This document shows, in pieces, positions 34,701-50,413 of a DNA stretch of 64,000 nt. The position numbers and the translations under genes are program-made. Every line of letters starts with the position of its first letter. Position 1 is the stretch's first letter. The stretch spans positions 416,001-480,000 of the forward strand of contig CH464491.1 in assembly GCA_000002445.1 (NCBI GenBank), given 5' to 3'. The notes under the pieces were generated by a model that was not told the origin of the DNA, ran no database searches, and saw only the letters and a program-made list of their open reading frames with translations. This DNA is from Trypanosoma brucei. Taxonomy: Eukaryota.

Positions 34701-37660
34701 TAGCGTTTTCGGTACCGTTTTCAACATTGCTGTTGGCGCTGCTTCCACGCGGCAACTGCATCCCAATATTCAGATGTCCCTTTAATCCTGTATTTTTCCA
34801 TGTTGCCGATGATTATCGTTTCTGTGCCCGATGAAGCGTCTAAACTCACCAGTTCATTTGTTGAAACTTTTCACTCCTTCTTATTGAATATCCCTATTTT
34901 TTGCGGCGTATGAGAGCCCTCCCCCATTCGTCTTTTGCGTTTGCTTTTATACCCACCCACGGAAAGCAAATTTATTTTCTCCTCGGAATCAACATCCAAG
35001 GAGCTTTAAGTGTGGAGTGCACCCTGATTTTCGCCTTCGGAGCACCAGACCTCCACTGTATTCAGCCATTCAGGTATTGGATGACTTCTAGGATATTGCC
35101 GGTTTATTATGTCTGAAAAGCATCCTTTTTGGCACTTGACGTGAGGCGGTATTCCACAGCCCACTTTTTTGGTCTTTTCAAACAAATATCAGTCGTGCTT
35201 ATTTGAGCATATCTTGTTTGTTTGCGTGCGACGAAATCTCAGCAATCGTGTATGCCGACTGAGCTTCCTTGCTTTTCGCTTTCTCCCCGCTTGAAATGGA
35301 AACGGAGAACCGTAGAAATAATACCATAGTCCATCTTTGCTTAGATGGGTCGAGAGTGGAAAGCTGTCGGTGTTTCTTGGGAGTTTTGCTCAGGTGATAG
35401 CACAACTCTTGGCTTTATGAATCTTGTCGTCGCTGCCGCCGCCATTTGCCACACATAGATTGGTACCCCTTCGGTTGCCACAATGCGGCGCCAAACAGAT
35501 TTGGCGTATTGGCATCGCTCACCATTTTTCCACGACTCGTGAAAGCGCATGGCTCTCGAGTGCTCGGTCCAAGTGATTTGTACTCCACCTCCGCCGGCAC
35601 TTCCGTAAAGTGTCCCGTTTATCGCTCGGTCACAAATTACAGAACCTGCTATAACTTACCTCTAAATTCTCCTCGTCCGAATTGAGTCACTGTGAGTTCC
35701 ATTTCGTAACTGAATAAACTGTGCGCGAGTCCAGGGATCACGTTCAGTTCTTTGCCCGGTCGTCCCATCATTATGAGCCCGGACCCGACACAGACGTATG
35801 AGGAACAGTGCATGTCGACTCTACACTCCCCGATAAAGTGTTGTTTACTCCGTTTTGTTTTTGAGGGGGCTGTGAGAAGAACTGCCAAGCCCATACCCAT
35901 TGCCAAGTAATGTACAAAACTCATCGATCCCCATTTTCATACCACGGTTAAGAGAAGCGTCGCAAAGAGTGAGTTTTTGAAACGCCCACCGAACCCAACC
36001 GTCACCGCCTCCGCGCGGGAGGCAGGTTAAGGGCACTTCCACCACCTTCTTTACCGCCAGTAAATTAACTTCCATACAATTGAGGACTCGCACACTACAG
36101 AAATCCCCCTCCCAAGCAATTTTAACGGCCGGCGTTGTAGGCACAACAAAGGTTAAAATATTACTCCTCCTGCTCGTTTTCTCTTCATTCAACACAAAAA
36201 AGGCAATGTATGGACTGTTCTGCCCGTTTTTTTTTTTTTGAGAGAGAGGGATAGTGAGGCTTCTGCAGCGGTAAAATTGCGAGTCAAGTGTTACCACGCT
36301 GTGGGAGGACACGACGTATAATGAAGGAAACTTTTTTTTTGCTTGCGGGCGGTTTAAAGGGATATGCGTTTAAACCATTATATCTTGAGTGGGTGGCGCC
36401 CGAAAAAGATCGCGAAGCAGGCATGAAGCTTGCGAAACTTCTTGGGGCTCAAAGGACCAACGACACGGTGAACTTGACAAAATTTGAGGGATGTAGAAGC
36501 TACATGTTGAGGAGAGCACAATGCATTAGCACGGTTCCCTAGGGCACTGGCTTTATGGAAACGGTGGTAAGATACCCGCTGGGGAGGCGAGCCAAACGTG
36601 CATTCATTTGGTGTATGGACTGCTAATAAACAAATGTAACAGGCGGAAGTCGGAGTTGTCGCACGCGGTGAGGCACCCCGTTGAGACGGAAGTATGGACC
36701 GAAACAACCCTCACATATAAAATGAAGCGTTCGCGTCACCCCCCCCCCCCCAGCGGCAGACATTGGCATATATGCGTTCGCGCTTGCACTTCATGTCAAT
36801 TTCGCCACTGAAAGGAGCACTCCATCCTGCGTGTGTGTGTGTGTGTGCTTGCCTGTGCATCTTTTTTCGAACGCCGTTGTTTTTATGTACGAAACGGAGG
36901 GCGGGGAGGGAGGGGAATCCCAGGTGGAAGTTATATTTCATGGCAGGGGAATATTGCTGACAGAATACTGTTACCAGTGCCCCGGCTGGTGGGGTTCGCC
37001 AACACGAAAGGACAATAGTGAAAAAAAATAAGGACTGGGGGAATAAAAATTTACAGAAGTTACACAGTTAAAAACACCATGAGCAATCGACGATTTCCAG
37101 ACCCTCTAGCACCACGATTCGGAGGTATTATTACACATTCCAGAATTTGTAGAGGTTCAAATTCAAGTTCCACGGTTCCAGTAATCCATCAGCCCTCACA
37201 AAACGTGTAAAGAAGCGCCAAGTTACTTCATGAGTCTCATCCGACCCATCTCATTCACGCTTTTCAAATACATACACTACAAAAAATCTACTCCCTCCGG
37301 TCTCCACAGGACGCACAAATTTGTCAGCGTGAACCCTGGTCCATGACGTAGAAAGTGTCTTGCGCCACCCGAAATACGTGGCTGAAGGATTTCGCGGGAC
37401 GGATACAAACCCCGCTGGGTAAAAGTGTGTGGGAGTTATCGTGCCTTCCGGGACCTATCTCCACAGCACATGTTTTCACCTCAGGGCAAAACGCATGTGG
37501 CCGCCTCATGCGAAATGGCATATCGGGAACACACCGCACACAGCACATCGGATACTAGCACCTACTCGACTACAAACAAGTAGAAAACGCACATGCATAG
37601 TACATTACGCCCCAGCAACGGGGGTCCTCCCCATTGATGGACGTGATGCGTGCCGAAGAA

Positions 37661-37728
37661 CGTGGACTGTAATTTTACCCGAGGTGTAAGCGCGATGAAT
37701 CACACCTCGGGTAAAATTACAGTCCACG
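37661..37728. repeat. perfect 27 bp inverted repeat (hairpin with 14 nt loop) about 95 nt downstream of the last gene of the minus-strand polycistronic unit
   Basis: The left arm cgtggactgtaattttacccgaggtgt, the loop aagcgcgatgaatc and the right arm acacctcgggtaaaattacagtccacg are read directly from the sequence. The right arm is the exact reverse complement of the left arm. Confidence 0.9.
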
Positions 37729-37822
37729 AGCCTCGTCCACACGACCGGATGGGCAACTGCGTTGGAAACTACTTATGAAACAGAGTTAATAGTTTCTTTT
37801 GTTTAGAGGCGGGGGTCACACG

Positions 37823-38995
37823 CTATTTTCTCAGTGGTCGAATAAGCCATCTAGGGTCTGAAATGTCCGAGAGAGGGCACACACCACTAAGTTTCATATA
37901 CCGGCGTGCGCCCCACACAGTGTGGACTTCTACAGAGCTATTCTCCAATAGACGTCTGTAGGCATTTTTCTGTTGGAAGGAAGAATCTCGAAGGGCTCTA
38001 AACCAACTTGTTTGGTTGAGATATTTGGGCATCAGGTTCCTCCACGCACTAATTGAGGTTGGGAAGTGCAAAACCACGCCACTTTCGACCGAAACACTGT
38101 GGGGATAATGAAAAAAACGCGTCTCGTAATCGAGGGATATAATTCCCCTTCGCAGCAGTAATTTTGGCTTCACATGCTTCGGCCTACTGACGCTCCATGT
38201 CAACACTATAGTCCACATAGTTTGATCACATAGCCAAATAAGGCTCTGGCGTCTCAAATTAAAGAAAACTTTCAAAGCCTCTTTTAGCGCCCACACTCTG
38301 GCTATCACGCCTCCGCCATTAAGATACGACCTTCCCGATTCATTTACCCTTAAAATATTTTCAACTCCCACACCCCTTGTTGCATCCATTGCGTCATCAA
38401 ACAACTTCTTACAGTTTTGAAACTCCGACCTCCCCTCCGGCTTCACCATGATATTCAGCTGAGGAGTAGCGCAACCCTTCTCAGCGGTAAACAACATTGG
38501 AGGTGTCATTTCTCCTCTTAAAATAGCCGTCTCGTTGAACGCTTCAGGGATTTTTGGTGTAGTGTCGAGGAAATGCTTCACTGCCTCCTCCCTAACACCT
38601 GCATCGGTGAAATAGGTATCTCCCCCATCGAACAACATAATCACATCACTTTCGCGCATCTTCTCACGCACCATGTAACTATAAATCCAGTCCCACCTCT
38701 TCACATGCCCATACCAGCCTCCCATGCCCAGTGTCGCAACCGATGCATTAGTGAGTATAGAACTTACAATCATCCTGCACCACCCCGGAGAGTACCTCGT
38801 GTGCACCACAGCATAATACACCCTCGGCGTATAATTTCTACCACTGTCTTTCTTTCTTAACAACGTCCCTGTTTCCTTGTTCCTCACGCTCATTTCTCCC
38901 AAAAACCAGAGCACAGTTAGCAGCATCACCCCCACCATCGCGGCATATAGTCTTCCCCTTGTGCCCCCATAAATTGCCCTAGCCCCTTTCAACAT
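37823..38995 (-). CDS. type II membrane protein, glycosyltransferase-like (GT-A fold, DGGD DxD-type motif; PLOD/LH3 N-terminal GT-domain-like), paralog A
   Basis: An N-terminal signal anchor (LYAAMVGVMLLTVLWFLG) is followed by VATLGMGGWYGHVKRW...DVIMLFDGGDTYFTD, which resembles the GT domain of lysyl hydroxylase/PLOD (TLGLGEEW...MIIMFVDSYDVIL). The functional call is tentative. The track start at 39010 is a TTG. The first ATG gives MLKGARAIYGG..., matching the N-terminus of paralog B. Confidence 0.45.
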   Translation of the reverse strand: MLKGARAIYGGTRGRLYAAMVGVMLLTVLWFLGEMSVRNKETGTLLRKKDSGRNYTPRVYYAVVHTRYSPGWCRMIVSSILTNASVATLGMGGWYGHVKRWDWIYSYMVREKMRESDVIMLFDGGDTYFTDAGVREEAVKHFLDTTPKIPEAFNETAILRGEMTPPMLFTAEKGCATPQLNIMVKPEGRSEFQNCKKLFDDAMDATRGVGVENILRVNESGRSYLNGGGVIARVWALKEALKVFFNLRRQSLIWLCDQTMWTIVLTWSVSRPKHVKPKLLLRRGIISLDYETRFFHYPHSVSVESGVVLHFPTSISAWRNLMPKYLNQTSWFRALRDSSFQQKNAYRRLLENSSVEVHTVWGARRYMKLSGVCPLSDISDPRWLIRPLRK

Positions 38996-39128
38996 ATAAA
39001 AACTTCGCAAAAAAAAAATGGATTTACTTGGAGAAGGGTGATGCTTTTCCCCTCAACTCGGACACAGTGCGGATGCGTTTTTTTTTTTTTTAACTCTGGC
39101 GAACGGTTCGTAAAAATTCCGTGCGATG

Positions 39129-40292
39129 TTACTTTTTCAACTGCCCACTGAGCCAACTGGGGTCGGAGATGTTAGATATGGGGCATACGGTACTTAACTT
39201 AGCGTCTTTGCGGGAACCCCAGAAAGTGTACATCTCCACAGTGGAATTTTTCAGCAAACGAATGGAGGCCTCCCGCTTGGGGGAAGAATTGCTCAGTGCT
39301 CTATACCAATTTATCTCACTCAGATACTGTGGCAATGTACGCTTCCACACGTGAACTGGTCCCGCAAAATGCAGTATCATTCCACTCATAACCATCGTCT
39401 TGGATGGATAAAGGAAGTAACGCGTCTCATAGTCAAGAGATATTAGCCCCCTTCTCACCAACAGCGCTGGCTTTATATTCTCCGGCCTGGTGATACTCCA
39501 TATTAGCAAGAGTGCCCACATTGACTGGTCGCAACCCCAAACAAACTTTTTTTTTCTGAGGTTAAAGAATGCCTTCAGAGCCTCTTCTAGTGCCCACACC
39601 CTGGCAATTATTCCTCCCCCGTTGAGATACGATCTTCCCGATTCATTCGCCCTTAAAATAGAACGCAACCCTGTGCGATTGGAAACTACGAACGCCTCGT
39701 TGTACAGTTTACTGCACTGATGAGCGCGCTCGCTCTTAGGTGTCTTTACCATGAAATGACTTTGAGGGGTGAAACAGAAATTTTCGGCGGCCATCAACAT
39801 TGGAGGTGTCATTTCCCCTCTTAAAATAGCCGTCTCGTTAAACGCTTCAGGGATTTTTGGTGTAGTGTCGAGGAAATGCTTCACTGCCTCCTCCCTTACA
39901 TCCTCCCCTGTGAAGACCGTATCGCCCCCATCAAATATCACAATCACGTCACCCTCACTCATCTTCTTCTGCCGTAGGTACCGGTACAACCACAACCACC
40001 TGCTCACATGCCCATACCAGCCTCCCATGCCCACTGTGGCAACGCTCACATTAGTGAGTATCGAACTTACAATCATCCTGCACCACCCCGGCGCGTACCT
40101 CGTTTCTGCAACAAGAAAAAACACCCTTGGTATGTGATTACCGTAACTTCCATCCTTCTTCCCCTCCACGCTAGTTTCCCCACTCCCTACATTTCTTAAC
40201 CCCAACCACCAAAAAAATAACATCAGCACCAACCCCATAACATACAACCTGCCCCTTGAATCCCCATAGAATTCCCTAACACCTTTCAGCAT
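39129..40292 (-). CDS. type II membrane protein, glycosyltransferase-like, paralog B (tandem duplicate of 37823-38995)
   Basis: About 70% aa identity to paralog A, with the same VATVGMGGWYGHV and FDGGDT motifs. It starts MLKGVREFYGD at an ATG. The intergenic spacer to paralog A is only ~120 bp and contains a T13 tract. Confidence 0.45.
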   Translation of the reverse strand: MLKGVREFYGDSRGRLYVMGLVLMLFFWWLGLRNVGSGETSVEGKKDGSYGNHIPRVFFLVAETRYAPGWCRMIVSSILTNVSVATVGMGGWYGHVSRWLWLYRYLRQKKMSEGDVIVIFDGGDTVFTGEDVREEAVKHFLDTTPKIPEAFNETAILRGEMTPPMLMAAENFCFTPQSHFMVKTPKSERAHQCSKLYNEAFVVSNRTGLRSILRANESGRSYLNGGGIIARVWALEEALKAFFNLRKKKFVWGCDQSMWALLLIWSITRPENIKPALLVRRGLISLDYETRYFLYPSKTMVMSGMILHFAGPVHVWKRTLPQYLSEINWYRALSNSSPKREASIRLLKNSTVEMYTFWGSRKDAKLSTVCPISNISDPSWLSGQLKK

Positions 40293-40431: not shown

Positions 40432-43400
40432 ACCAAAAACACATAAATATGTGCAACACCGATTATCTCGGGATGCTGATGCTCCCACTCGCCTACATAT
40501 GAAGGCAGTGGGTCTCAATGCATACCTCGTTAAATGTGAACCCAACGATAACGATATTCTGTGGGACAGATTCAAATAGATGAGACAACAGAGTAGTGTG
40601 CAGGCATTCAATACGTACAACAGTCAGACCTGTTGAGTTTGATTTAGTATTCAATAAGCGCGCTCATAAAGTAAGGCATATTGACCTTCACGTACACATA
40701 ATCGTTGTTTCCATCACACTGCCGCGTCTGTTGTGCATTCCCCCCATTTTCTTATCCACCTTCCCACCCAGATACCACAAACAAACCGCATGATCTCTCT
40801 TACACTTTCGAGCCAATACCGTCACCGAAAGTATACTGACAGGCAGCCAGACAGGGTAAGATTTGGTTCTAATGACATAATGCTGCGTAGAGCAAAGGTA
40901 GTGGGGGGGGGGAAAAAAAAGGATGTGGAGAGGGATGGAGGAAGGAAGGGAACGAGCTGCATAGCAGGCCATTGCTCAGCCGAAAGGTGATTTTTGATGT
41001 TCCGTTATCAATGCATCGCTCAAACTGTTTGGACCTCGAACAACAATTATGCATCACAGCATCAGTGGCCAAAAAGAAAACTAGTAGCACACATATACAC
41101 ACACACGAACATAAACATAAACATAAACATAAACAGGGATGAATGACCTATGAGGAAGAGGGTGGATAAAAACAAAATAATAAGGATGGATGATACTCGA
41201 TTCAGTGTGAGCTGAGTTAAAAATTATGTCTTCAAAATGGCTCTACTGCCGTCAGGCTGACAGGAAACTATTGACTGTCATCATTAGAGGGGAAGATAAT
41301 GCATTTGAGTGCCAAAACTACAAATGGCTCTCGCGCAACAGGACAGGGGCCACATCCCCACGGCATTAAATGGTTGCCACTGGCCCAAGGGATGCTGCGC
41401 TGTATTGTTTCAACAGCACATAAGCAAAAACACATAAATATGTGCAACACCGATTATCTCGGGATGCTGATGCTCCCACTCGCCTACATATGAAGGCAGT
41501 GGGTCTCAATGCATACCTCGTTAAATGTGAACCCAACGATAACGATATTCTGTGGGACAGATTCAAGTAGATGAGACAACAGAGTAGTGTGCAGGCATTC
41601 GATACGTACAACAGTCAGACCTGTTGAGTTTGATTTAGTATTCAATAAGCGCGCTCATAAAGTAAGGCATATTGACCTTCACGTACACATAATCGTTGTT
41701 TCCATCACACTGCCGCGTCTGTTGTGCATTCCCCCCATTTTCTTATCCACCTTCCCACCCAGATACCACAAACAAACCGCACGATCTCTCTTACACTTTC
41801 GAGCCAATACCGTCACCGAAAGTATACTGACAGACAGCCAGACAGGGTAAGATTTGGTTCTAATGACATAATGCTGCGTAGAGCAAAGGTAGTGGGGGGG
41901 GGAAAAAAAAGGATGTGGAGAGGGATGGAGGAAGGAAGGGAACGAGCTGCATAGCAGGCCATTGCTCAGCCGAAAGGTGATTTTTGATGTTCCGTTATCA
42001 ATGCATCGCTCAAACTGTTTGGACCTCGAACAACAATTATGCATCACAGCATCAGTGGCCAAAAAGAAAACTAGTAGCACACATATACACACACACGAAC
42101 ATAAACATAAACATAAACAGGGATGAATGACCTATGAGGAAGAGGGTGGATAAAAACAAAATAATAAGGATGGATGATACTCGATTCAGTGTGAGCTGAG
42201 TTAAAAATTATGTCTTCAAAATGGCTCTACTGCCGTCAGGCTGACAGGAAACTATTGACTGTCATCATTAGAGGGGAAGATAATGCATTTGAGTGCCAAA
42301 ACTACAAATGGCTCTCGCGCAACAGGACAGGGGCCACATCCCCACGGCATTAAATGGTTGCCACTGGCCCAAGGGATGCTGCGCTGTATTGTTTCAACAG
42401 CACATAAGCAAAAACACATAAATATGTGCAACACCGATTATCTCGGGATGCTGATGCTCCCACTCGCCTACATATGAAGGCAGTGGGTCTCAATGCATAC
42501 CTCGTTAAATGTGAACCCAACGATAACGATATTCTGTGGGACAGATTCAAATAGATGAGACAACAGAGTAGTGTGCAGGCATTCGATACGTACAACAGTC
42601 AGACCTGTTGAGTTTGATTTAGTATTCAATAAGCGCGCTCATAAAGTAAGGCATATTGACCTTCACGTACACATAATCGTTGTTTCCATCACACTGCCGC
42701 GTCTGTTGTGCATTCCCCCCATTTTCTTATCCACCTTCCCACCCAGATACCACAAACAAACCGCATGATCTCTCTTACACTTTCGAGCCAATACCGTCAC
42801 CGAAAGTATACTGACAGGCAGCCAGACAGGGTAAGATTTGGTTCTAATGACATAATGCTGCGTAGAGCAAAGGTAGTGGGGGGGGGGGAAAAAAAAGGAT
42901 GTGGAGAGGGATGGAGGAAGGAAGGGAACGAGCTGCATAGCAGGCCATTGCTCAGCCGAAAGGTGATTTTTGATGTTCCGTTATCAATGCATCGCTCAAA
43001 CTGTTTGGACCTCGAACAACAATTATGCATCACAGCATCAGTGGCCAAAAAGAAAACTAGTAGCACACATATACACACACACGAACATAAACATAAACAT
43101 AAACACGGGATGAATGACCTATGAGGAAGAGGGTGGATAAAAACAAAATAATAAGGATGGATGATACTCGATTCAGTGTGAGCTGAGTTAAAAATTATGT
43201 CTTCAAAATGGCTCTACTGCCGTCAGGCTGACAGGAAACTATTGACTGTCATCATTAGAGGGGAAGATAATGCATTTGAGTGCCAAAACTACAAATGGCT
43301 CTCGCGCAACAGGACAGGGGCCACATCCCCACGGCATTAAATGGTTGCCACTGGCCCAAGGGATGCTGCGCTGTATTGTTTCAACAGCACATAAGCAAAA

Positions 43401-45603
43401 ACACATAAATATGTGCAACACCGATTATCTCGGGATGCTGATGCTCCCACTCGCCTACATATGAAGGCAGTGGGTCTCAATGCATACCTCGTTAAATGTG
43501 AACCCAACGATAACGATATTCTGTGGGACAGATTCAAATAGATGAGACAACAGAGTAGTGTGCAGGCATTCAATACGTACAACAGTCAGACCTGTTGAGT
43601 TTGATTTAGTATTCAATAAGCGCGCTCATAAAGTAAGGCATATTGACCTTCACGTACACATAATCGTTGTTTCCATCACACTGCCGCGTCTGTTGTGCAT
43701 TCCCCCCATTTTCTTATCCACCTTCCCACCCAGATACCACAAACAAACCGCATGATCTCTCTTACACTTTCGAGCCAATACCGTCACCGAAAGTATACTG
43801 ACAGGCAGCTAGACAGGGTAAGATTTGGTTCTAATGACATAATGCTGCGTAGAGCAAAGGTAGTGGGGGGGGAAAAAAAAGGATGTGGAGAGGGATGGAG
43901 GGAGGAAGGGAACGAGCTGCATAGCAGGCCATTGCTCAGCCGAAAGGTGATTTTTGATGTTCCGTTATCAATGCATCGCTCAAACTGTTTGGACCTCGAA
44001 CAACAATTATGCATCACAGCATCAGTGGCCAAAAAGAAAACTAGTAGCACACATATACACACACACGAACATAAACATAAACATAAACATAAACAGGGAT
44101 GAATGACCTATGAGGAAGAGGGTGGATAAAAACAAAATAATAAGGATGGATGATACTCGATTCAGTGTGAGCTGAGTTAAAAATTATGTCTTCAAAATGG
44201 CTCTACTGCCGTCAGGCTGACAGGAAACTATTGACTGTCATCATTAGAGGGGAAGATAATGCATTTGAGTGCCAAAACTACAAATGGCTCTCGCGCAACA
44301 GGACAGGGGCCACATCCCCACGGCATTAAATGGTTGCCACTGGCCCAAGGGATGCTGCGCTGTATTGTTTCAACAGCACATAAGCAAAAACACATAAATA
44401 TGTGCAACACCGATTATCTCGGGATGCTGATGCTCCCACTCGCCTACATATGAAGGCAGTGGGTCTCAATGCATACCTCGTTAAATGTGAACCCAACGAT
44501 AACGATATTCTGTGGGACAGATTCAAATAGATGAGACAACAGAGTAGTGTGCAGGCATTCAATACGTACAACAGTCAGACCTGTTGAGTTTGATTTAGTA
44601 TTCAATAAGCGCGCTCATAAAGTAAGGCATATTGACCTTCACGTACACATAATCGTTGTTTCCATCACACTGCCGCGTCTGTTGTGCATTCCCCCCATTT
44701 TCTTATCCACCTTCCCACCCAGATACCACAAACAAACCGCACGATCTCTCTTACACTTTCGAGCCAATACCGTCACCGAAAGTATACTGACAGGCAGCTA
44801 GACAGGGTAAGATTTGGTTCTAATGACATAATGCTGCGTAGAGCAAAGGTAGTGGGGGGGGAAAAAAAAGGATGTGGAGAGGGATGGAGGAAGGAAGGGA
44901 ACGAGCTGCATAGCAGGCCATTGCTCAGCCGAAAGGTGATTTTTGATGTTCCGTTATCAATGCATCGCTCAAACTGTTTGGACCTCGAACAACAATTATG
45001 CATCACAGCATCAGTGGCCAAAAAGAAAACTAGTAGCACACATATACACACACACGAACATAAACATAAACATAAACATAAACAGGGATGAATGACCTAT
45101 GAGGAAGAGGGTGGATAAAAACAAAATAATAAGGATGGATGATACTCGATTCAGTGTGAGCTGAGTTAAAAATTATGTCTTCAAAATGGCTCTACTGCCG
45201 TCAGGCTGACAGGAAACTATTGACTGTCATCATTAGAGGGGAAGATAATGCATTTGAGTGCCAAAACTACAAATGGCTCTCGCGCAACAGGACAGGGGCC
45301 ACATCCCCACGGCATTAAATGGTTGCCACTGGCCCAAGGGATGCTGCGCTGTATTGTTTCAACAGCACATAAGCAAAAACACATAAATATGTGCAACACC
45401 GATTATCTCGGGATGCTGATGCTCCCATTCGCCTACATATGAAGGCAGTGGGTCTCAATGCATACCTCGTTAAATGTGAACCCAACGATAACGATATTCT
45501 GTGGGACAGATTCAAATAGATGAGACAACAGAGTAGTGTGCAGGCATTCAATACGTACAACAGTCAGACCTGTTGAGTTTGATTTAGTATTCAATAAGCG
45601 CGC
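40432..45603. repeat. tandem direct-repeat array: 5 full + 1 partial copies of a 984-991 bp unit, >99% identical
   Basis: The same 60-137 aa ORFs recur at 984-991 bp spacing (e.g. minus-strand ORF starts at 41450, 42434, 43421, 44410, 45399). The unit landmark cacataaatatgtgcaacacc falls at ~40440, 41431, 42415, 43402, 44391 and 45380. Copies differ only by a few SNPs, (CATAAA)3 vs (CATAAA)4, and a G8-11 A8 block. The array ends abruptly at ...caataagcgcgctc / ttttttttttggg. Confidence 0.95.
42180..42275 (-). ncRNA. candidate C/D-box snoRNA, one per repeat unit (coordinates given for the third copy); speculative
   Basis: On the minus strand the unit reads ...ccucuAAUGAUGAcagucaauaguuuccugucagcCUGAcggcaguagagccauuuugaagacauaauuuuuaacucagcucacaCUGAaucgag.... 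This gives a consensus C box (AUGAUGA), a CUGA about 22 nt downstream (D') and a second CUGA about 80 nt downstream (D), so the element is ~90 nt, a typical size for a trypanosome C/D snoRNA. The terminal stem is weak. No covariance search or expression data were available. Confidence 0.2.
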
Positions 45604-46826
45604 TCTTTTTTTTTGGGAGAGGGTTACTTCTATTTGCTATATTATTTTTCTTGAACTGCAATGCCTTGCGTGAAGAAAATTATGAGGTGAAAAAAAAAGG
45701 TGTCAAGTTTTTGCTGTTATGGAATTGGTTTTTTTAATGCTTACTTGCTAAACTTTTTTTTTTTGGAGCAGAAGTGTTTACACATTTTCTTTTTTTCAAC
45801 TCATCATCCTGTCTTCCATTTTGTTATGTAACTGATCTTTATACAAATAAGAATGGATATTTGCAATGGAGAACGTATCGGTAGGATGGATGTGAGTTCT
45901 GACCCTTTATTCTGTGATCAGTTGTGGGATTTGCAATATATCTCTCGTGCGTTTTTTTAGAAAAAATATACCAAAGGATGAACAACTTAATGGTAAACGT
46001 TGGATCTTTTCTGCCGAATTTTTTCTTTCTTTTCTTCCATAACTTTTTTTTCTTGGAAGGTGGTTCTTTTCTTAACTTCTACCAAAGCATCGCCGCGTTA
46101 TGCAGTGCAAAGAGGCGAGTTTTTTTTATGTCGATCGAACCACCCTTTAAAAACAAGCAAAACCACGGATACGTAAACGTGTTAATGAGGTTGAGTGATA
46201 GCTTTTGTGACCAATCACCTCACGTGTGGTAACGGTAAGTAAAACAAAACGATGTAAAATGCGGCAAGGCAACAACGCATATGCGCAGTCACTTATATAC
46301 GAACAAATAACGAAATGACATATATATAATGGCAATTCATAAAAAGTGAGAGTAACCATGCCTTTGCAGTTGTGGAATCGTTGTTTTCCCTATTTCATCG
46401 ATTCCCTTGGTGGTTTGCCTTCATATGAAGCTGTGTCGGGCGCTTTCGACATACCCATCAATGCAACAATTCAAACTTGCACTCAGTCACTTTTTCCTTT
46501 TCCCCGTATCGGCGTGAGCTCTACGCTATTTCTCCTCCACTCTGTAGATATTGAGACGCTTGAACGATAACGTATATGAAATGCCCAGCAGTTGCAACCG
46601 CAAGCTTACACATGGATCACTGGACCTTTCCCATGCATAAAGCTAAATGCCATCTCCGAGGCAAGGCAAGAGAGTCGTGAAATACATGATCAAACGAAAA
46701 AATACGAAATGAGGCGACAAACGGCGGACTTCGCTCCGCCCAATAACTCAAATAAATAACACGCACCATATCCTGATTGCTTTACATAACATCCATCTCG
46801 CCACCCCTCGTCAGAACAAACAATTC

Positions 46827-48062
46827 TTAAAGACTGTTGATCAAATCTTTCGTAATGTTCTTGTGATGTGCCTCGAGTGTGCCGCCGCCGATCTCAAGCA
46901 ACTTCGCATCCCGCCACAGCCGCTCCACCGGCATATCACGCGCATATCCCATACCACCCATAACTTGCATGGCGTTGTCAGCCGCCCGCTTCGCAACAGG
47001 CGCTGCAAACAATTTTACCGCATCGCTCCCCAGGCGGTTGCAATTTCCTGGCGCCACACTCCTGCTTACAGCATATGTAAGTGATTTGGCCGCCTCCGTT
47101 TCTGCAAACGTCTCGGCAATGTAGCGCTGAATCTGTCCATAATTCCAAATGTGTTTACCAAACGTCTTACGCTCATTGGCATAACACGTCATGAGTTCCA
47201 CGCAACGATCAGCAATACCCACCGCCATTGCGGCCAATGTGAGACGCTCAACCTCCAGGTTACGCATCATTGCCACAAGCCCTTTCCCTTCAGTGCCGAG
47301 CAGATTCTCCTCTCCAAGCACCACATTATCGAAGAAAAGTTGACACATGTGAGACCCACGCATGCCGCACTTGTCAATCTTCTTCCCCACAGAAAACCCC
47401 GATGCACCCTTCTCTACAACGAACGCGGTGATTTTGCCGTCAACCTTTGCATACACAAGAACAAGGTCAGCAACGGTACCATTTGTCACCCACGTCTTGC
47501 CACCGTTAAGAATATACTTTCCATTACTTTCTTTTGTCGCAGTGGTCAGCATACCAAGAACATCTGTACCCGCACCGGGTTCCGACATGCCCATTGCACC
47601 TATGTGCTCGCCTGTAAGCACTTTGGGGAGCCACCGCTCCCGTTGTGCCGCTGTGGAAGCATGATAGAAGTTGTTCACAAAAAGCATCGAGTGAGCCAAG
47701 TAGGCGAGACAAAAGCCTGGATCCACTTTGGAAAGCTCGTGGTGGATAACAACCGCTGCCGTGGCGTCCATTCCAGCACCACCGTCTCCCTCAGGAATGG
47801 TTACACCGAGTACACCAAGGTCACCCAACTCGCGTAGGAGATCAACATTAAAATGCATGTCAATATCGCTCTGTTTTGCCTGCGTTTCAACCCGCTCCGC
47901 TGCGAATCTTTGAACCGTTTCACGCAGCATCTTGTGTTCAGGTGTTGGGTTTAAAAGATAATCCAAGTTAACGGTCGTCGAAGGAGAGAAAAAACGGAGA
48001 CCACATGGTGCTACCAGCGCAGTGTAGTGTCGTCTAATAGACGCTAAACGATACGAGCGCAT
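46827..48062 (-). CDS. IVD: isovaleryl-CoA dehydrogenase, mitochondrial (acyl-CoA dehydrogenase family)
   Basis: Strong block-wise similarity to IVD: [67 protein letters not shown] and [15 protein letters not shown] align with human IVD GNLGVLGITAP..., [49 protein letters not shown] and LRDAKLYEIGAGTSE. The track start at 48101 is a TTG. The first ATG (~48062) gives [13 protein letters not shown]..., an Arg-rich mitochondrial-type presequence. Confidence 0.85.
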   Translation of the reverse strand: [411 protein letters not shown]

Positions 48063-48838
48063 GCTCAACAGGGGGAAATGAAACAAAACGCTCAAATTCA
48101 ATAAGGCTCCTGTTTTCCCCCTCTTTTAATTCCCCACAAGTACAAGTTTCTTTTTCGATAATACCAACGAGATGCCGCAACAATCCACTACCCTCCCGGT
48201 AGTGTCAGCAGTTTCCCCCTTAATTTTCCACTTCCCCCACGATTATCCTCTACCCACCAGTTGGCTGCGCAGCGTCTAAGCACAGCACAAACAGTCACCG
48301 GCGCGTGAAAAAAAAAAAACTTATTCTGTCAAAGGTTTGTCGTCCGATGGCCTCCCGTTTTCGCTTGTTTTTATCCCTACTACTTTTCCCTTCCCTTCAA
48401 TTTTTTTTCAGGCACTGCGTATTTTGGGATGCAACGATGTGTGCAGACACTATCGAGGGAAGAACGAAAGATAGGAAGAAGGCTACAAAACAACAAGTGT
48501 ATTACTAAAAGTGAAGCAGAAGCAAATCCACAGCAAAAAAGGGAGCTCATGTAAACCTCCCCCCCCCTTCTTTTACAGGAAGCCACAAAGTGAGGGGAGC
48601 GATGCGGTCAGCTCACGCTTGCACAAGATCAAACAACAACAACCACAACAACCGACAAATAAGGTAGCGACACTTCCCTTCCTCGAACCAATCCTTCGTC
48701 CCTCTTCTCCAGCTCAGTTTCCAACCACTTTGCCGTTACCGAACCCGACAATATACCTCAAAACCGACACAAACAATATCAGGGAGAACGTACCGCCGTA
48801 GTTTTAAAACATACAAACTGCTTTATGCCATCAGCCAT

Positions 48839-50413
48839 TCATTTTACACCTCCATCGCAGACTCGCACATCTGCAACTGCTTGCTTCTCGGGATGAAAGC
48901 TCATGAAAGTAATCTTCCCATCCTCACTCTCCAAGAACCTCATGTGTCGCACCTGCAGCAGGTCCTGCTCCGCAGCAGTCAATTCATCCACCTTCACCTG
49001 AGACATTAAGCGACGCGTTTCATCCAACAGGAACTCTGAAGAGAAAGAGTTCGTCAACTTTTCACCCTGGTTAACGCTCTCCTCTTTTATTACCATGTGA
49101 ATTGGAGAAGAAAAGCGACCACGGAGCCCCAATACAGCAATGCATTGTTCCAACGGTGAAAAGCACGGTAGAGGGGATTCCGACACGGGTCGGATCTTTC
49201 CTAACAATCCCTTAACGTGCGATGCTCCCTTCAGCATCCCCGCTGTCGGTTTCTTCGTATGTGCTCGAAATTTGTAATCGTAGCACTGACCGGCCACGAT
49301 GGATCTGAGAGCCCACACTGCACCTTTCAACAGCTCCACACCTTCCTCTATCGCCTCCCTCGAGAGTGGGGACTCCTTCATTGTCATTTGTTTAATTTTA
49401 GACATGTACTTGGCCGGTGAACTGACGTCTTTCACTGCCATTACGGCGCGCAGAAACTCAATATCCACATCGAAACCCTCTCCACGTATGAGTGATCTCT
49501 TAAAATAACCACAGTGGAGACGAAGTTCTCTGTAACGACGCCAGAAAACAAGAGCCACCTTTCCAATTCCCTCAAACCAGTCGCCTCCACTAAGCAGCAT
49601 TAGGAAGACGAAATCAATACGATACGACGGTAACAAATCGGGTCGTATTTGATTCCCCGGTGAAGACGACCCCCAGTGTTTGAAAAGTTCACCAACATCG
49701 GTCAGAGCGTAGTCTCGGGGATCCACTATGGTGAATTTGGTATATGGAGTGCAGGCAACACCAACTAGCACCAAGTCGGAATCATTTCCGACGACTATAA
49801 TTTCATCATCTCCCGTATATGTTTGTGACTTCCGTTGCTCCAGCCAGATGGTACGCAAGACACAAACCACTTTTAGCTCGCCTTCACCACCTTCAGCGCA
49901 GCCACTCATAATAATTGTGTAATTCCTTCCCTCTCCCGGTGGCACACAAAATTCACCACCAATCCCAAATGCACATCTCACCGCATCTTCGCACGCAAGT
50001 AAAAATTCAGACCCCGCGATAATTTCTTCGCGTGAAAATGAGATTTCCTGCCCAATGTAGTCGTGATTGTATCTTAACTCGAGCGAACTTGTACACTCGC
50101 TACTGTGTCGCTTGTTATACGATGCACGCCGGGTCTTCTGTGTCTGAAGTTTGGCGCAAGGCGCAACCCCGTCAAAGAGAATCACAAGGGTTTCACTGGG
50201 GGGAAATGCGGAAATGAGCTTCTGCACAGCCTCAACTACTCCTTCAATCACTGACTTGGTGGTGAAAACATTGGTTGGCACGATATAATGAACAATGGCA
50301 TTCATATCTAAAAGCAGGTGGTTGGTCCTCTTGACGACACCGTCCCTGCCCCTGCTCGAACTTCTGACGAGACCATGTTTCTCGACATAATTTCGTAGCC
50401 CCTTGGTGCCCAT
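48839..50413 (-). CDS. XRN-family 5'-3' exoribonuclease, short form (conserved XRN N-terminal nuclease core only, 524 aa)
   Basis: MGTKGLRNY...LLLDMNAIVHYIV matches the XRN N-terminus (MGVPKFFRW...LYLDMNGIIH). ILFDGVAPCAKLQTQKTRR matches AIDGVAPRAKMNQQRSRR. EGGEGELKV matches PGEGEHKI. VVGNDSDLVLVGV matches GLDADLIMLGL. The acidic catalytic residues are conserved. There is no long C-terminal extension. The ORF starts at an ATG. Confidence 0.7.
   Translation of the reverse strand: MGTKGLRNYVEKHGLVRSSSRGRDGVVKRTNHLLLDMNAIVHYIVPTNVFTTKSVIEGVVEAVQKLISAFPPSETLVILFDGVAPCAKLQTQKTRRASYNKRHSSECTSSLELRYNHDYIGQEISFSREEIIAGSEFLLACEDAVRCAFGIGGEFCVPPGEGRNYTIIMSGCAEGGEGELKVVCVLRTIWLEQRKSQTYTGDDEIIVVGNDSDLVLVGVACTPYTKFTIVDPRDYALTDVGELFKHWGSSSPGNQIRPDLLPSYRIDFVFLMLLSGGDWFEGIGKVALVFWRRYRELRLHCGYFKRSLIRGEGFDVDIEFLRAVMAVKDVSSPAKYMSKIKQMTMKESPLSREAIEEGVELLKGAVWALRSIVAGQCYDYKFRAHTKKPTAGMLKGASHVKGLLGKIRPVSESPLPCFSPLEQCIAVLGLRGRFSSPIHMVIKEESVNQGEKLTNSFSSEFLLDETRRLMSQVKVDELTAAEQDLLQVRHMRFLESEDGKITFMSFHPEKQAVADVRVCDGGVK

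What the first reader, a model, noticed from the sequence alone, without database searches (positions are those of the whole stretch)
40432..45603. About 5.2 kb head-to-tail array of a ~989 bp unit inside a Pol II polycistron: probable non-coding RNA (snoRNA-type) gene cluster
Six consecutive copies (five full, one partial) of a 984-991 bp unit are more than 99% identical to each other. Unit length varies only at an internal hexamer microsatellite (CATAAA)3-4 and a G8-11/A8 homopolymer block. The array lies between protein-coding genes of the minus-strand transcription unit, so it should be co-transcribed with them. Every unit carries a ~50 nt polypyrimidine tract on the transcribed strand (the reverse complement of gtgggggggg(g)aaaaaaaaggatgtggagagggatggaggaaggaaggg). 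The short ORFs in the unit recur in several frames on both strands and look non-coding. I see no match to the spliced-leader exon or to 5S rRNA. In trypanosomatids the classical cause of near-identical ~0.6-2 kb tandem units embedded in a polycistron is a reiterated snoRNA (C/D plus H/ACA) gene cluster. The very high inter-copy identity indicates concerted evolution. The alternative is a lineage-specific satellite or lncRNA array.
Basis: partly seen in the sequence, partly recalled or inferred. Interest (0 to 1): 0.7.

Follow-up and report, generated by a model that had tools for sequence, protein, structure and literature searches.

The report
Known T. brucei snoRNA gene cluster TB11Cs4
The 5.2 kb tandem array is the already described TB11Cs4 small nucleolar RNA gene cluster on Trypanosoma brucei chromosome 11, in which each repeat encodes six guide RNAs that direct chemical modification of ribosomal RNA; it is real and functional but ordinary and well documented.

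Summary
Window 40432-45605 holds five full units (984-991 bp) and one truncated unit, more than 99% identical to each other.

On the minus strand each unit encodes six snoRNAs in the order H3, C1, C2, H1, C3, H2:
- Three single-hairpin, AGA-box H/ACA-like RNAs match Rfam TB11Cs4H1, H2 and H3 at 67-90 bits (gathering scores 40-50).
- Three box C/D RNAs were found by their boxes and guides.

I tested the guides against independent environmental eukaryotic rDNA. They select an A/A pair 12 nt apart, a U/A pair 11 nt apart, and a G. These bases and spacings match the published T. brucei 2'-O-methylation sites assigned to TB11Cs4C1 (LSUb A1388/A1400), C2 (LSUa U916/A927) and C3 (LSUb G673). The H/ACA pockets select one SSU site and two LSU sites, as published.

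The flanking proteins match T. b. brucei TREU927 chromosome 11 entries EAN79130 and EAN79132 exactly; the gene between them is 100% identical to the cluster holding EAN79131.

The cluster has 4 full units in T. b. gambiense and 1 in a T. b. equiperdum assembly. It is syntenic (downstream of the isovaleryl-CoA dehydrogenase gene) in T. theileri and Leishmania donovani.

Verdict: already known; low interest.

The parts
40432..45605 (-). TB11Cs4 snoRNA cluster array. It holds five full units of 984-991 bp, preceded in the direction of transcription by one truncated unit.
45558..45605 (-). Truncated C3 copy at the upstream edge of the array. Only the 3' half is present, with the D guide and D box but no C box, so it is presumably non-functional.
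   Evidence: The same truncated copy is present in T. b. gambiense and T. b. equiperdum.
45406..45468 (-). TB11Cs4H2 copy in the truncated upstream unit. It is a variant with one substitution.
   Evidence: Rfam RF01540, 67.3 bits.
45275..45350 (-). TB11Cs4H3, unit 1.
   Evidence: RF01541, 90.2 bits.
45145..45238 (-). Box C/D snoRNA C1 (TB11Cs4C1), unit 1.
   Evidence: Boxes and guides identified.
44916..45019 (-). Box C/D snoRNA C2 (TB11Cs4C2), unit 1.
   Evidence: There is also a weak snoZ196/R39/R59 match of 27 bits.
44745..44815 (-). TB11Cs4H1, unit 1.
   Evidence: RF01539, 82.5 bits.
44569..44673 (-). Box C/D snoRNA C3 (TB11Cs4C3), unit 1.
44417..44479 (-). TB11Cs4H2, unit 1.
   Evidence: RF01540, 73.1 bits.
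44286..44361 (-). TB11Cs4H3, unit 2.
   Evidence: RF01541, 90.2 bits.
44156..44249 (-). C1, unit 2. The C box AUGAUGA starts at 44244, the D' box CUGA at 44215 and the D box CUGA at 44165.
43927..44030 (-). C2, unit 2. It has a GGCCA/UGGCC terminal stem, a C box GUGAUGC starting at 44017 and a D box CUGA at 43939.
43756..43826 (-). TB11Cs4H1, unit 2.
   Evidence: RF01539, 82.5 bits.
43580..43684 (-). C3, unit 2. The C box GUGAUGG starts at 43679 and the D box CUGA at 43589.
43428..43490 (-). TB11Cs4H2, unit 2.
   Evidence: RF01540, 73.1 bits.
43297..43372 (-). TB11Cs4H3, unit 3.
43167..43260 (-). C1, unit 3.
42943..43046 (-). C2, unit 3.
42769..42839 (-). TB11Cs4H1, unit 3. This is the G.U variant of the first upper-stem pair.
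   Evidence: 80.7 bits.
42593..42697 (-). C3, unit 3.
42441..42503 (-). TB11Cs4H2, unit 3.
42310..42385 (-). TB11Cs4H3, unit 4.
42180..42273 (-). C1, unit 4.
41957..42060 (-). C2, unit 4.
41785..41855 (-). TB11Cs4H1, unit 4. This variant carries an additional C-to-U change in the internal loop.
   Evidence: 77.8 bits.
41609..41713 (-). C3, unit 4.
41457..41519 (-). TB11Cs4H2, unit 4.
41326..41401 (-). TB11Cs4H3, unit 5.
41196..41289 (-). C1, unit 5.
40967..41070 (-). C2, unit 5.
40794..40864 (-). TB11Cs4H1, unit 5.
   Evidence: 80.7 bits.
40618..40722 (-). C3, unit 5.
40466..40528 (-). TB11Cs4H2, unit 5. This is the last gene of the array.
43863..43912 (-). Pyrimidine-rich tract between C2 and H1, followed by an AG dinucleotide. 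These coordinates are for unit 2, placed by register. The other copies are at 44852-44901, 42876-42928, 41892-41942 and 40901-40952. It is a candidate signal for spliced-leader addition and coupled polyadenylation of the pre-snoRNA transcripts; this role is inferred.
   Evidence: Sequence. Precursors carrying a spliced leader and a poly(A) tail are reported in PMC2936537.
44068..44091 (-). (UGUUUA)n microsatellite in the C1-C2 spacer, one of the two sources of unit length variation. These coordinates are for unit 2. The other copies are at 45057-45080, 43084-43101, 42098-42115 and 41108-41131.
46827..48062 (-). Upstream flanking gene, isovaleryl-CoA dehydrogenase (411 aa). It is shown for context only.
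   Evidence: Pfam; 100% identity to the T. brucei protein.
39129..40292 (-). Downstream flanking gene, 387 aa, annotated as 'ESAG protein, putative'. It is shown for context only.
   Evidence: Exact match to EAN79130.1/XP_828242.1 of T. b. brucei TREU927.

Best explanation
The array is the TB11Cs4 snoRNA gene cluster of Trypanosoma brucei brucei TREU927 chromosome 11.

What is shown here:
- Each roughly 989 bp unit encodes six guide RNAs on the minus strand, in the order H3, C1, C2, H1, C3, H2.
- The three box C/D RNAs have guide sequences complementary to LSU rRNA. C1 selects two A residues 12 nt apart in the helix 90-92 region. C2 selects a U and an A 11 nt apart in the 'CUGUUUGGACCCGAAAGGUG' region. 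C3 selects the G of 'CCCUGUUGAG'.
- The three H/ACA-like RNAs are single hairpins with a 3' AGA box. Their pockets bracket one U in SSU rRNA (H2) and two U residues in the 3' half of LSU rRNA (H1 and H3).

What is inferred from the literature on this organism:
- The array is transcribed by RNA polymerase II as part of the minus-strand polycistronic unit.
- The precursor is trans-spliced and polyadenylated into sub-precursors, probably using the pyrimidine-rich tract in each unit.
- The individual snoRNAs are then cut and trimmed out.
- C/D RNAs assemble with NOP1/fibrillarin and H/ACA RNAs with CBF5. The resulting RNPs carry out 2'-O-methylation and pseudouridylation of pre-rRNA.

The tandem reiteration raises gene dosage. 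Unequal crossing-over or gene conversion keeps the copies nearly identical, which also explains why copy number differs between T. brucei subspecies assemblies.
For: - Rfam: at gathering threshold there are 5 copies of TB11Cs4H3 (90.2 bits), 5 of TB11Cs4H1 (77.8-82.5 bits) and 6 of TB11Cs4H2 (67.3-73.1 bits). All are on the minus strand and cover the full model length.
- H/ACA geometry: the alignments show a single hairpin followed by AGA. Read, the pocket-to-AGA distance is 14-15 nt.
- C/D genes: canonical C, D' and D boxes with terminal stems define three C/D genes per unit. All 15 copies are identical in sequence.
- Target prediction: the 20-mer predicted jointly from C2's two guides exists in at least 120 environmental contigs. 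In the one checked with Rfam, L046, it lies in eukaryotic LSU rRNA.
- C/D guide scans on three such rDNA loci:
  - C1 D' and D guides select A and A, 12 nt apart.
  - C2 D' and D guides select U and A, 11 nt apart.
  - The C3 D guide selects G through a 14 bp duplex; 0 of 200 shuffles reach its score.
- Match to published sites: these equal the published RiboMeth-seq assignments LSUb A1388/A1400 for TB11Cs4C1, LSUa U916/A927 for TB11Cs4C2 and LSUb G673 for TB11Cs4C3 (PMC9283944 Table 2).
- H/ACA pockets: the best pocket targets are H2 in SSU, and H1 and H3 in the 3' half of LSU, with 0-3 of 100 shuffles reaching the score. This matches PMC4855143 Table S1, which also reports reads for all three RNAs in procyclic and bloodstream forms.
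- Organism: the flanking proteins match TREU927 entries EAN79130 and EAN79132 exactly; the gene between them is 100% identical to the cluster holding EAN79131.
- Transcription and processing: Pol II polycistronic transcription and precursors carrying a spliced leader and poly(A) tail are reported in PMC3273796 and PMC2936537.
- Conservation: the cluster is present at the same locus in T. b. gambiense and T. b. equiperdum. It is syntenic downstream of the isovaleryl-CoA dehydrogenase gene in T. theileri and L. donovani.
Against: - Nothing contradicts the identification.
- The guide-target tests used environmental eukaryotic rDNA, not the T. brucei rRNA sequence itself, which no tool offered.
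- Individual guide scans are only moderately significant on their own (0-12 of 200 shuffles reach the observed score). The strength comes from the paired spacing and the match to published sites.
- The assignment of the names C1, C2 and C3 to my three C/D genes rests on the match of predicted to published targets. The original description (Liang et al. 2005, RNA 11:619) was not available to read.
- The role of the pyrimidine tract is inferred.
- C3's D' guide has no convincing rRNA target.
- No RNA data could be mapped here.
Confidence: 0.97

Rival explanations
1. The array is a lineage-specific satellite or long non-coding RNA array with no small-RNA products.
For: The units are near-identical tandem repeats with no conserved ORF. 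Spacers make up about 48% of the unit.
Against: - There are sixteen gathering-level covariance-model matches to three snoRNA families.
- The C/D guides obey the D+5 rule at published methylation sites.
- All 15 C/D copies and all H3 copies are invariant, while 4 of the 6 substitutions fall in spacers.
- H1, H2 and H3 homologues lie at the syntenic position in Leishmania and T. theileri, so the element is not lineage-specific.
Confidence: 0.01
2. The tandem structure or its copy number is an assembly artefact. The true locus would hold a single unit, or a very different number of units.
For: Copy number differs among assemblies: 5 full units here, 4 in T. b. gambiense DAL972 and 1 in T. b. equiperdum. 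In the equiperdum assembly the neighbouring pair of ESAG-like paralogues is also reduced to one copy, which looks like a collapse of repeats.
Against: - All three independent assemblies show at least one full unit plus the same truncated upstream unit, so the head-to-tail arrangement is real.
- Units in the window carry distinguishable variants (three H1 alleles, microsatellite and G-run lengths). A spurious duplication would not produce these.
- The published literature describes the clusters as repeated (PMC3273796).
Confidence: 0.15
3. The array is a protein-coding gene family encoded by the short ORFs of the unit.
For: ORFs of 60-138 aa recur in each unit on both strands.
Against: ORF lengths change between otherwise more than 99% identical copies because the only indels (microsatellite, homopolymer) shift or extend them. 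In addition, 52% of the unit is occupied by the six snoRNA genes as delimited here.
Confidence: 0.01

Closest known systems
TB11Cs4 snoRNA cluster of Trypanosoma brucei (Liang et al. 2005, RNA 11:619; Rfam RF01539, RF01540, RF01541)
   Same: It is the same locus. The three H/ACA-like genes match the Rfam models over their full length. The three C/D genes predict the published TB11Cs4C1, C2 and C3 methylation sites. The flanking genes are those of TREU927 chromosome 11.
   Different: Nothing substantive differs. The window shows three H1 sequence variants among its five copies. It also shows a truncated C3 plus an extra H2 at the upstream edge. I could not check these against the original description.
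Orthologous cluster in Leishmania donovani (FR799614.1, locus L125) and Trypanosoma theileri (locus L124)
   Same: H1 and H2 (Leishmania) or H2 and H3 (T. theileri) homologues lie downstream of the XRN_N and isovaleryl-CoA dehydrogenase genes on the same strand, and are also repeated.
   Different: A DUF1295 gene lies between the dehydrogenase gene and the cluster in those species, but not in T. brucei. Gene content and repeat structure differ. The C/D genes were not examined there.
snoZ196 / snR39 / snR59 box C/D family (Rfam RF00134)
   Same: C2 gives a weak full-length match of 27.3 bits. Its D guide targets the 'CCGAAAG' segment of LSU rRNA. From my own recollection of the yeast 25S sequence, this is the segment methylated by snR39/snR59.
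   Different: The score is far below the gathering threshold of 55 bits, so C2 cannot be filed as a member. The resemblance is a shared target site.
Other reiterated T. brucei snoRNA clusters, for example TB11Cs2 with SLA1 and TB9Cs2
   Same: They share the organisation of interspersed C/D and single-hairpin H/ACA-like genes in tandem repeats inside Pol II polycistrons, processed from precursors that carry a spliced leader and a poly(A) tail (PMC3273796, PMC2936537).
   Different: They carry different guide RNAs and targets.

Membership tests
Trypanosomatid H/ACA-like snoRNAs TB11Cs4H1, H2, H3 (Rfam RF01539-RF01541) | The covariance-model score reaches the curated gathering threshold over the full model. 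| tested here: met
   H3 scores 90.2 bits (threshold 40), H1 77.8-82.5 (threshold 45) and H2 67.3-73.1 (threshold 50). All matches cover model position 1 to the end.
Trypanosomatid H/ACA-like snoRNAs TB11Cs4H1, H2, H3 (Rfam RF01539-RF01541) | A single hairpin with an internal pocket and a 3' AGA box about 14-16 nt from the base of the upper stem. | tested here: met
   The structure lines and sequences show lower stem, pocket, upper stem, then G-AGA. The distance counted from the first pocket nucleotide on the 3' side to AGA is 15 nt for H3, 14 for H1 and 14 for H2.
Trypanosomatid H/ACA-like snoRNAs TB11Cs4H1, H2, H3 (Rfam RF01539-RF01541) | The two pocket strands are complementary to rRNA on both sides of an unpaired U-N. 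| tested here: met
   on environmental eukaryotic rDNA, not on T. brucei rRNA itself:
- H1: accgucg-UG-agacagg in LSU, 12 of 14 bp.
- H2: gugaugc-UC-cucaaug in SSU, 13 of 14 bp.
- H3: cgacag-UC-aaggga in LSU, 11 of 12 bp.
- Only 0-3 of 100 shuffles reach these scores, and the result is the same in three loci.
Trypanosomatid H/ACA-like snoRNAs TB11Cs4H1, H2, H3 (Rfam RF01539-RF01541) | A stable small RNA bound by CBF5, with the target pseudouridine present. | not testable with these tools
   This rests on published work only. PMC4855143 Table S1 lists reads in procyclic and bloodstream forms and assigns H2 to SSU and H1 and H3 to LSU3.
Box C/D snoRNAs (TB11Cs4C1, C2, C3) | A C box (RUGAUGA-like) near the 5' end, a D box (CUGA) near the 3' end, and a short terminal stem. 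| tested here: met
   - C1: AUGAUGA ... CUGA with CUC/GAG flanks.
- C2: GUGAUGC (and an overlapping CUGAUGC) ... CUGA with a GGCCA/UGGCC stem.
- C3: GUGAUGG ... CUGA with a CAG/CUG stem.
- The C boxes of C2 and C3 deviate from consensus at the last base.
Box C/D snoRNAs (TB11Cs4C1, C2, C3) | A duplex of at least 10 bp with rRNA ending next to D or D', placing the modified base opposite the fifth guide nucleotide. | tested here: met
   One search gives duplexes of 11-14 bp for C1 D', C1 D, C2 D', C2 D and C3 D. The selected bases (A, A, U, A, G) and their spacings (12 and 11 nt) equal the published sites. C3 D' has no rRNA target, in line with PMC9283944, which reports a domain of TB11Cs4C3 with no predicted rRNA interaction.
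Box C/D snoRNAs (TB11Cs4C1, C2, C3) | Association with NOP1/fibrillarin, with methylation that depends on NOP1. | not testable with these tools
   In published RiboMeth-seq after NOP1 silencing, several of these sites fall, for example LSUa_916 and LSUb_672/673.
snoZ196/R39/R59 (RF00134), considered for C2 | The covariance-model score reaches the gathering threshold of 55 bits. | tested here: not met
   The score is 27.3 bits, E = 0.74. C2 is not filed as a member.
TB11Cs4 locus identity (T. b. brucei TREU927 chromosome 11) | The flanking genes are identical to the annotated TREU927 neighbours. | tested here: met
   The 387 aa ORF matches EAN79130.1 exactly and the 524 aa XRN_N protein matches EAN79132.1 exactly. 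The isovaleryl-CoA dehydrogenase gene is 100% identical to the representative of the cluster that holds EAN79131.1. All are on a 5.26 Mb contig.

The most novel reading that the evidence does not exclude
The most novel reading still open is that the difference in full-unit number among Trypanozoon assemblies is genuine dosage variation, not repeat collapse. The counts are 5 in TREU927, 4 in T. b. gambiense and 1 in T. b. equiperdum. Such variation could alter the stoichiometry of the sites these RNAs guide, several of which are sub-stoichiometric in published data. A second open point is that C3's orphan D' guide and the three H1 alleles in the array could serve non-rRNA or alternative targets.
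Probability: 0.25. Interest if true: 0.25.

Novelty: already known. Interest (0 to 1): 0.08.

Why it matters
It matters little beyond correct annotation. The element is a textbook example of how trypanosomes organise snoRNA genes: interspersed C/D and single-hairpin H/ACA-like genes, tandemly reiterated inside Pol II polycistrons. Confirming it shows that a sequence-only reader can recognise such clusters. It also gives exact gene coordinates for all 31 intact snoRNA copies and one truncated copy in the window. The only mildly useful new observations are the copy-number differences between subspecies assemblies and the conserved synteny with Leishmania and T. theileri.

Tried and rejected
- Tandem Repeats Finder does not report the array, because its longest period is 500. 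The repeat finder was used instead.
- A relaxed Rfam search (E up to 10) over the array added only a weak snoZ196 match for C2, plus chance matches to SCARNA7 and ST7-AS1_2. There is no Rfam family for the three C/D genes, so they were defined by hand.
- Liang et al. 2005, the original description, is not in the held library by PubMed id or PMC id. Later papers from the same laboratory were used instead.
- An Rfam scan of six rDNA loci at once failed internally. A single locus worked.
- A first pure-Python guide scan timed out and was rewritten with numpy.
- Two candidate D' boxes for C3 (GUGA and AUGA) gave no rRNA duplex better than shuffled guides.
- A window-wide scan for further canonical C/D genes with rRNA guides found only the five C1 copies (C2 and C3 lack the strict C-box form it required), plus four weak hits inside coding ORFs with poor stems. 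The related TB11Cs4' genes named in the literature were not located in this window.
- An exact look-up of the 387 aa protein's contig returned nothing, so the TREU927 record itself was not fetched.
- The T. cruzi locus (L123) shows no TB11Cs4 homologue within 10 kb downstream of the isovaleryl-CoA dehydrogenase gene; an RHS gene lies there instead. The T. vivax contig ends too early to tell.

Full report
**Observation**

The tandem array is real. The repeat finder finds six in-register copies with start-to-start spacings of 991, 984, 987, 989 and 989 bp, beginning at about 40422. Tandem Repeats Finder misses the array only because its longest period is 500.

An alignment of the five full units shows six substitutions and two indel loci. 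The indel loci are a hexamer microsatellite with 3 or 4 repeats and a homopolymer run of 8-11 G on the + strand, measured in four units. Homology starts at about 40432-40434 (read) and stops at 45605.

The pyrimidine-rich tract on the minus strand is present in each full unit. It is about 50 nt long and about 92% pyrimidine.

**Context and organism**

ORFs of at least 200 aa lie on the + strand from 32 to 31705 and on the minus strand from 37823 to 63987. The window therefore spans a convergent strand-switch region. The array sits near the 3' end of the minus-strand transcription unit.

- Upstream of the array are an XRN_N-domain protein (48839-50413) and an acyl-CoA dehydrogenase (46827-48101).
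- Downstream are two paralogous ORFs that are 58% identical to each other.
- The dehydrogenase is 100% identical to T. brucei isovaleryl-CoA dehydrogenase.
- The 387 aa downstream ORF matches EAN79130.1 and the XRN_N protein matches EAN79132.1, both exactly. Both belong to T. b. brucei TREU927 and lie on a 5.26 Mb contig, and the dehydrogenase cluster includes EAN79131.1.

The window is therefore TREU927 chromosome 11. No protein gene is annotated between EAN79130 and EAN79131.

**What the unit encodes**

Rfam at gathering threshold gives 16 matches in the whole window. All are inside the array and all are on the minus strand:
- TB11Cs4H3: 5 copies, 90.2 bits.
- TB11Cs4H1: 5 copies, 77.8-82.5 bits.
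- TB11Cs4H2: 6 copies, 67.3-73.1 bits.

The alignments show the trypanosomatid H/ACA-like form: one hairpin with an internal pocket and a 3' AGA box 14-15 nt from the pocket.

Between these genes, each unit contains three box C/D genes:
- C1 is 94 nt, with AUGAUGA ... CUGA (D') ... CUGA (D).
- C2 is 104 nt, with a GGCCA/UGGCC terminal stem, a GUGAUGC C box and a CUGA D box. It has a weak 27-bit resemblance to snoZ196/R39/R59.
- C3 is 105 nt, with GUGAUGG ... CUGA.

The gene order along the transcript is H3, C1, C2, H1, C3, H2, with spacers of 36-125 nt. The snoRNA genes fill 52% of the unit.

All 15 C/D copies are identical. Two of the six substitutions fall in H1. One changes an A-U pair to G.U and the other lies in an internal loop. 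The other four are in spacers.

The upstream-most, truncated unit begins inside C3. It carries only the 3' half, with no C box, and it also carries an extra H2 copy with one substitution.

**Test of guide function**

No T. brucei rRNA was available, so I made a prediction from the sequence. C2's D' and D guides together imply the rRNA target CUGUUUGGACCCGAAAGGUG. That exact 20-mer occurs in at least 120 metagenome contigs. One of them, L046, carries a complete eukaryotic rDNA unit according to Rfam, and the match lies in its LSU rRNA.

I scanned three long rDNA loci with each guide under the D+5 rule. The results were identical in all three loci:
- C1 D' selects the A in CACUGA*CAGGGAAC. C1 D selects the A in GUGA*GCUGGGUU, exactly 12 nt downstream.
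- C2 D' selects a U and C2 D selects an A, 11 nt apart.
- C3 D selects the G in CCCUG*UUGAG through a 14 bp duplex. None of 200 shuffled guides reach its score.

The published RiboMeth-seq table for T. brucei (PMC9283944, Table 2) assigns:
- LSUb A1388 and A1400 to TB11Cs4C1.
- LSUa U916 and A927 to TB11Cs4C2.
- LSUb U672 and G673 to TB11Cs4C3.

The bases and the spacings (12 and 11 nt) are the same as I predicted. This is the basis for naming my three C/D genes C1, C2 and C3. C3's D' region has no rRNA target better than chance, in line with that paper, which reports a domain of TB11Cs4C3 with no predicted rRNA interaction.

The H/ACA pockets were scanned in the same way:
- H2 selects a U in SSU rRNA (gugaugc-UC-cucaaug).
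- H1 selects a U in the LSU 3' half (accgucg-UG-agacagg).
- H3 selects a U in the LSU 3' half (cgacag-UC-aaggga).
- Only 0-3 of 100 shuffled pockets reach these scores.

This agrees with PMC4855143 Table S1, which lists TB11Cs4H2 under SSU and H1 and H3 under LSU3, with sequencing reads in both life-cycle stages.

**How it works**

The gene content and guide complementarities are shown here. The remaining steps come from established work on T. brucei:
- snoRNA genes always share the orientation of their neighbouring genes and are transcribed by Pol II.
- They are first made as long precursors with a spliced leader and a poly(A) tail. Each precursor holds one or more snoRNAs, and a cluster can give several precursors (PMC2936537; PMC3273796).
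- Mature RNAs are released by nucleases that are still poorly defined.

The pyrimidine-rich tract followed by AG in each unit is a plausible signal for spliced-leader addition and coupled polyadenylation. This is my inference and is untested.

The near-identity of the copies, together with variable copy number, indicates concerted evolution by unequal exchange or gene conversion.

**Comparison with other genomes**

- T. b. gambiense DAL972 has the same locus with 4 full units plus the same truncated unit.
- A T. b. equiperdum assembly has 1 full unit plus the truncated unit. It also has only one copy of the ESAG-like paralogue pair. This may be real or may be repeat collapse.
- In both of these subspecies, H3 carries a 2 nt insertion in the apical loop. 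C1, C3 and H2 are identical to the window copies, while C2 differs by one base in both and H1 by one base in equiperdum.
- In T. theileri (H2 twice, H3 once) and Leishmania donovani (H1 twice, H2 three times), homologues lie downstream of the same XRN_N and isovaleryl-CoA dehydrogenase gene pair, after a DUF1295 gene that is absent at this position in T. brucei.
- No homologue was seen within 10 kb in the T. cruzi locus, where an RHS gene follows. The T. vivax contig ends too early to tell.

**Verdict**

The element is the named and experimentally characterised TB11Cs4 cluster, so it is already known and of low interest.

Three questions remain open, all minor:
- What is the true copy number per strain?
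- What does the pyrimidine tract do?
- Does C3's orphan guide have a non-rRNA target?

Noticed in passing
window 31706-37822: This is a convergent strand-switch region. + strand genes end at 31705 (a 1399 aa protein with faint leucine-rich-repeat Pfam hits on its equiperdum counterpart) and minus-strand genes begin at 37823. The roughly 6 kb between them has no ORF of 200 aa or more, no Rfam match and no tandem repeat. The snoRNA array therefore lies near the 3' end of its transcription unit. In T. theileri the orthologous cluster also directly precedes opposite-strand genes.
   Followed up: partly
window 37823-39010 and 39129-40292 (minus strand): A tandem pair of paralogous genes lies immediately downstream of the array. 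They are 58% identical as proteins and 72-79% as DNA, spaced 1303 bp apart. One is annotated 'ESAG protein, putative' in TREU927, and neither has a Pfam domain. The T. b. equiperdum assembly has a single hybrid copy.
   Followed up: partly
L122 11000-17000 and L001 12460-13690, compared with window 40432-45605: The number of full units differs between assemblies: 5 in the window, 4 in T. b. gambiense DAL972 and 1 in T. b. equiperdum. The same truncated C3 plus H2 copy sits at the upstream edge in all three. Whether this is real variation or repeat collapse is unresolved.
   Followed up: partly
window 44361-44286 compared with L122 12712-12789: TB11Cs4H3 has a 2 nt (AG) insertion in its apical loop in T. 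b. gambiense and T. b. equiperdum relative to TREU927. One gambiense copy has a further G-to-A change in the loop. The guide pocket is unchanged.
   Followed up: yes
L046 8254-8298 and 8951-8982 (environmental rDNA): snoRNAs from this one cluster target neighbouring rRNA sites. H3's U and C3's G are 44 nt apart. C1's two A residues and H1's U lie within 31 nt of each other. I did not check whether this clustering of targets by genomic cluster is more than coincidence.
   Followed up: no
window 45606-46826; L124 11898-12857; L125 13272-14198; L126 12293-13255: A DUF1295 gene lies between the isovaleryl-CoA dehydrogenase gene and the snoRNA cluster position in T. theileri, L. donovani and T. vivax. 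In the T. brucei window the corresponding 1.2 kb has no ORF of 200 aa or more.
   Followed up: no
window 44030-44010 (C2 5' end, each unit): C2 has two overlapping C-box-like motifs (CUGAUGC and GUGAUGC) 8 nt apart, directly after its terminal stem. Which one functions as the C box was not resolved.
   Followed up: no
L123 11237-16941 (T. cruzi): In the T. cruzi contig, the isovaleryl-CoA dehydrogenase gene is followed by a 3.4 kb gap with no called gene and then an RHS (retrotransposon hot spot) gene. No TB11Cs4 homologue was found. Synteny appears to be broken there.
   Followed up: no
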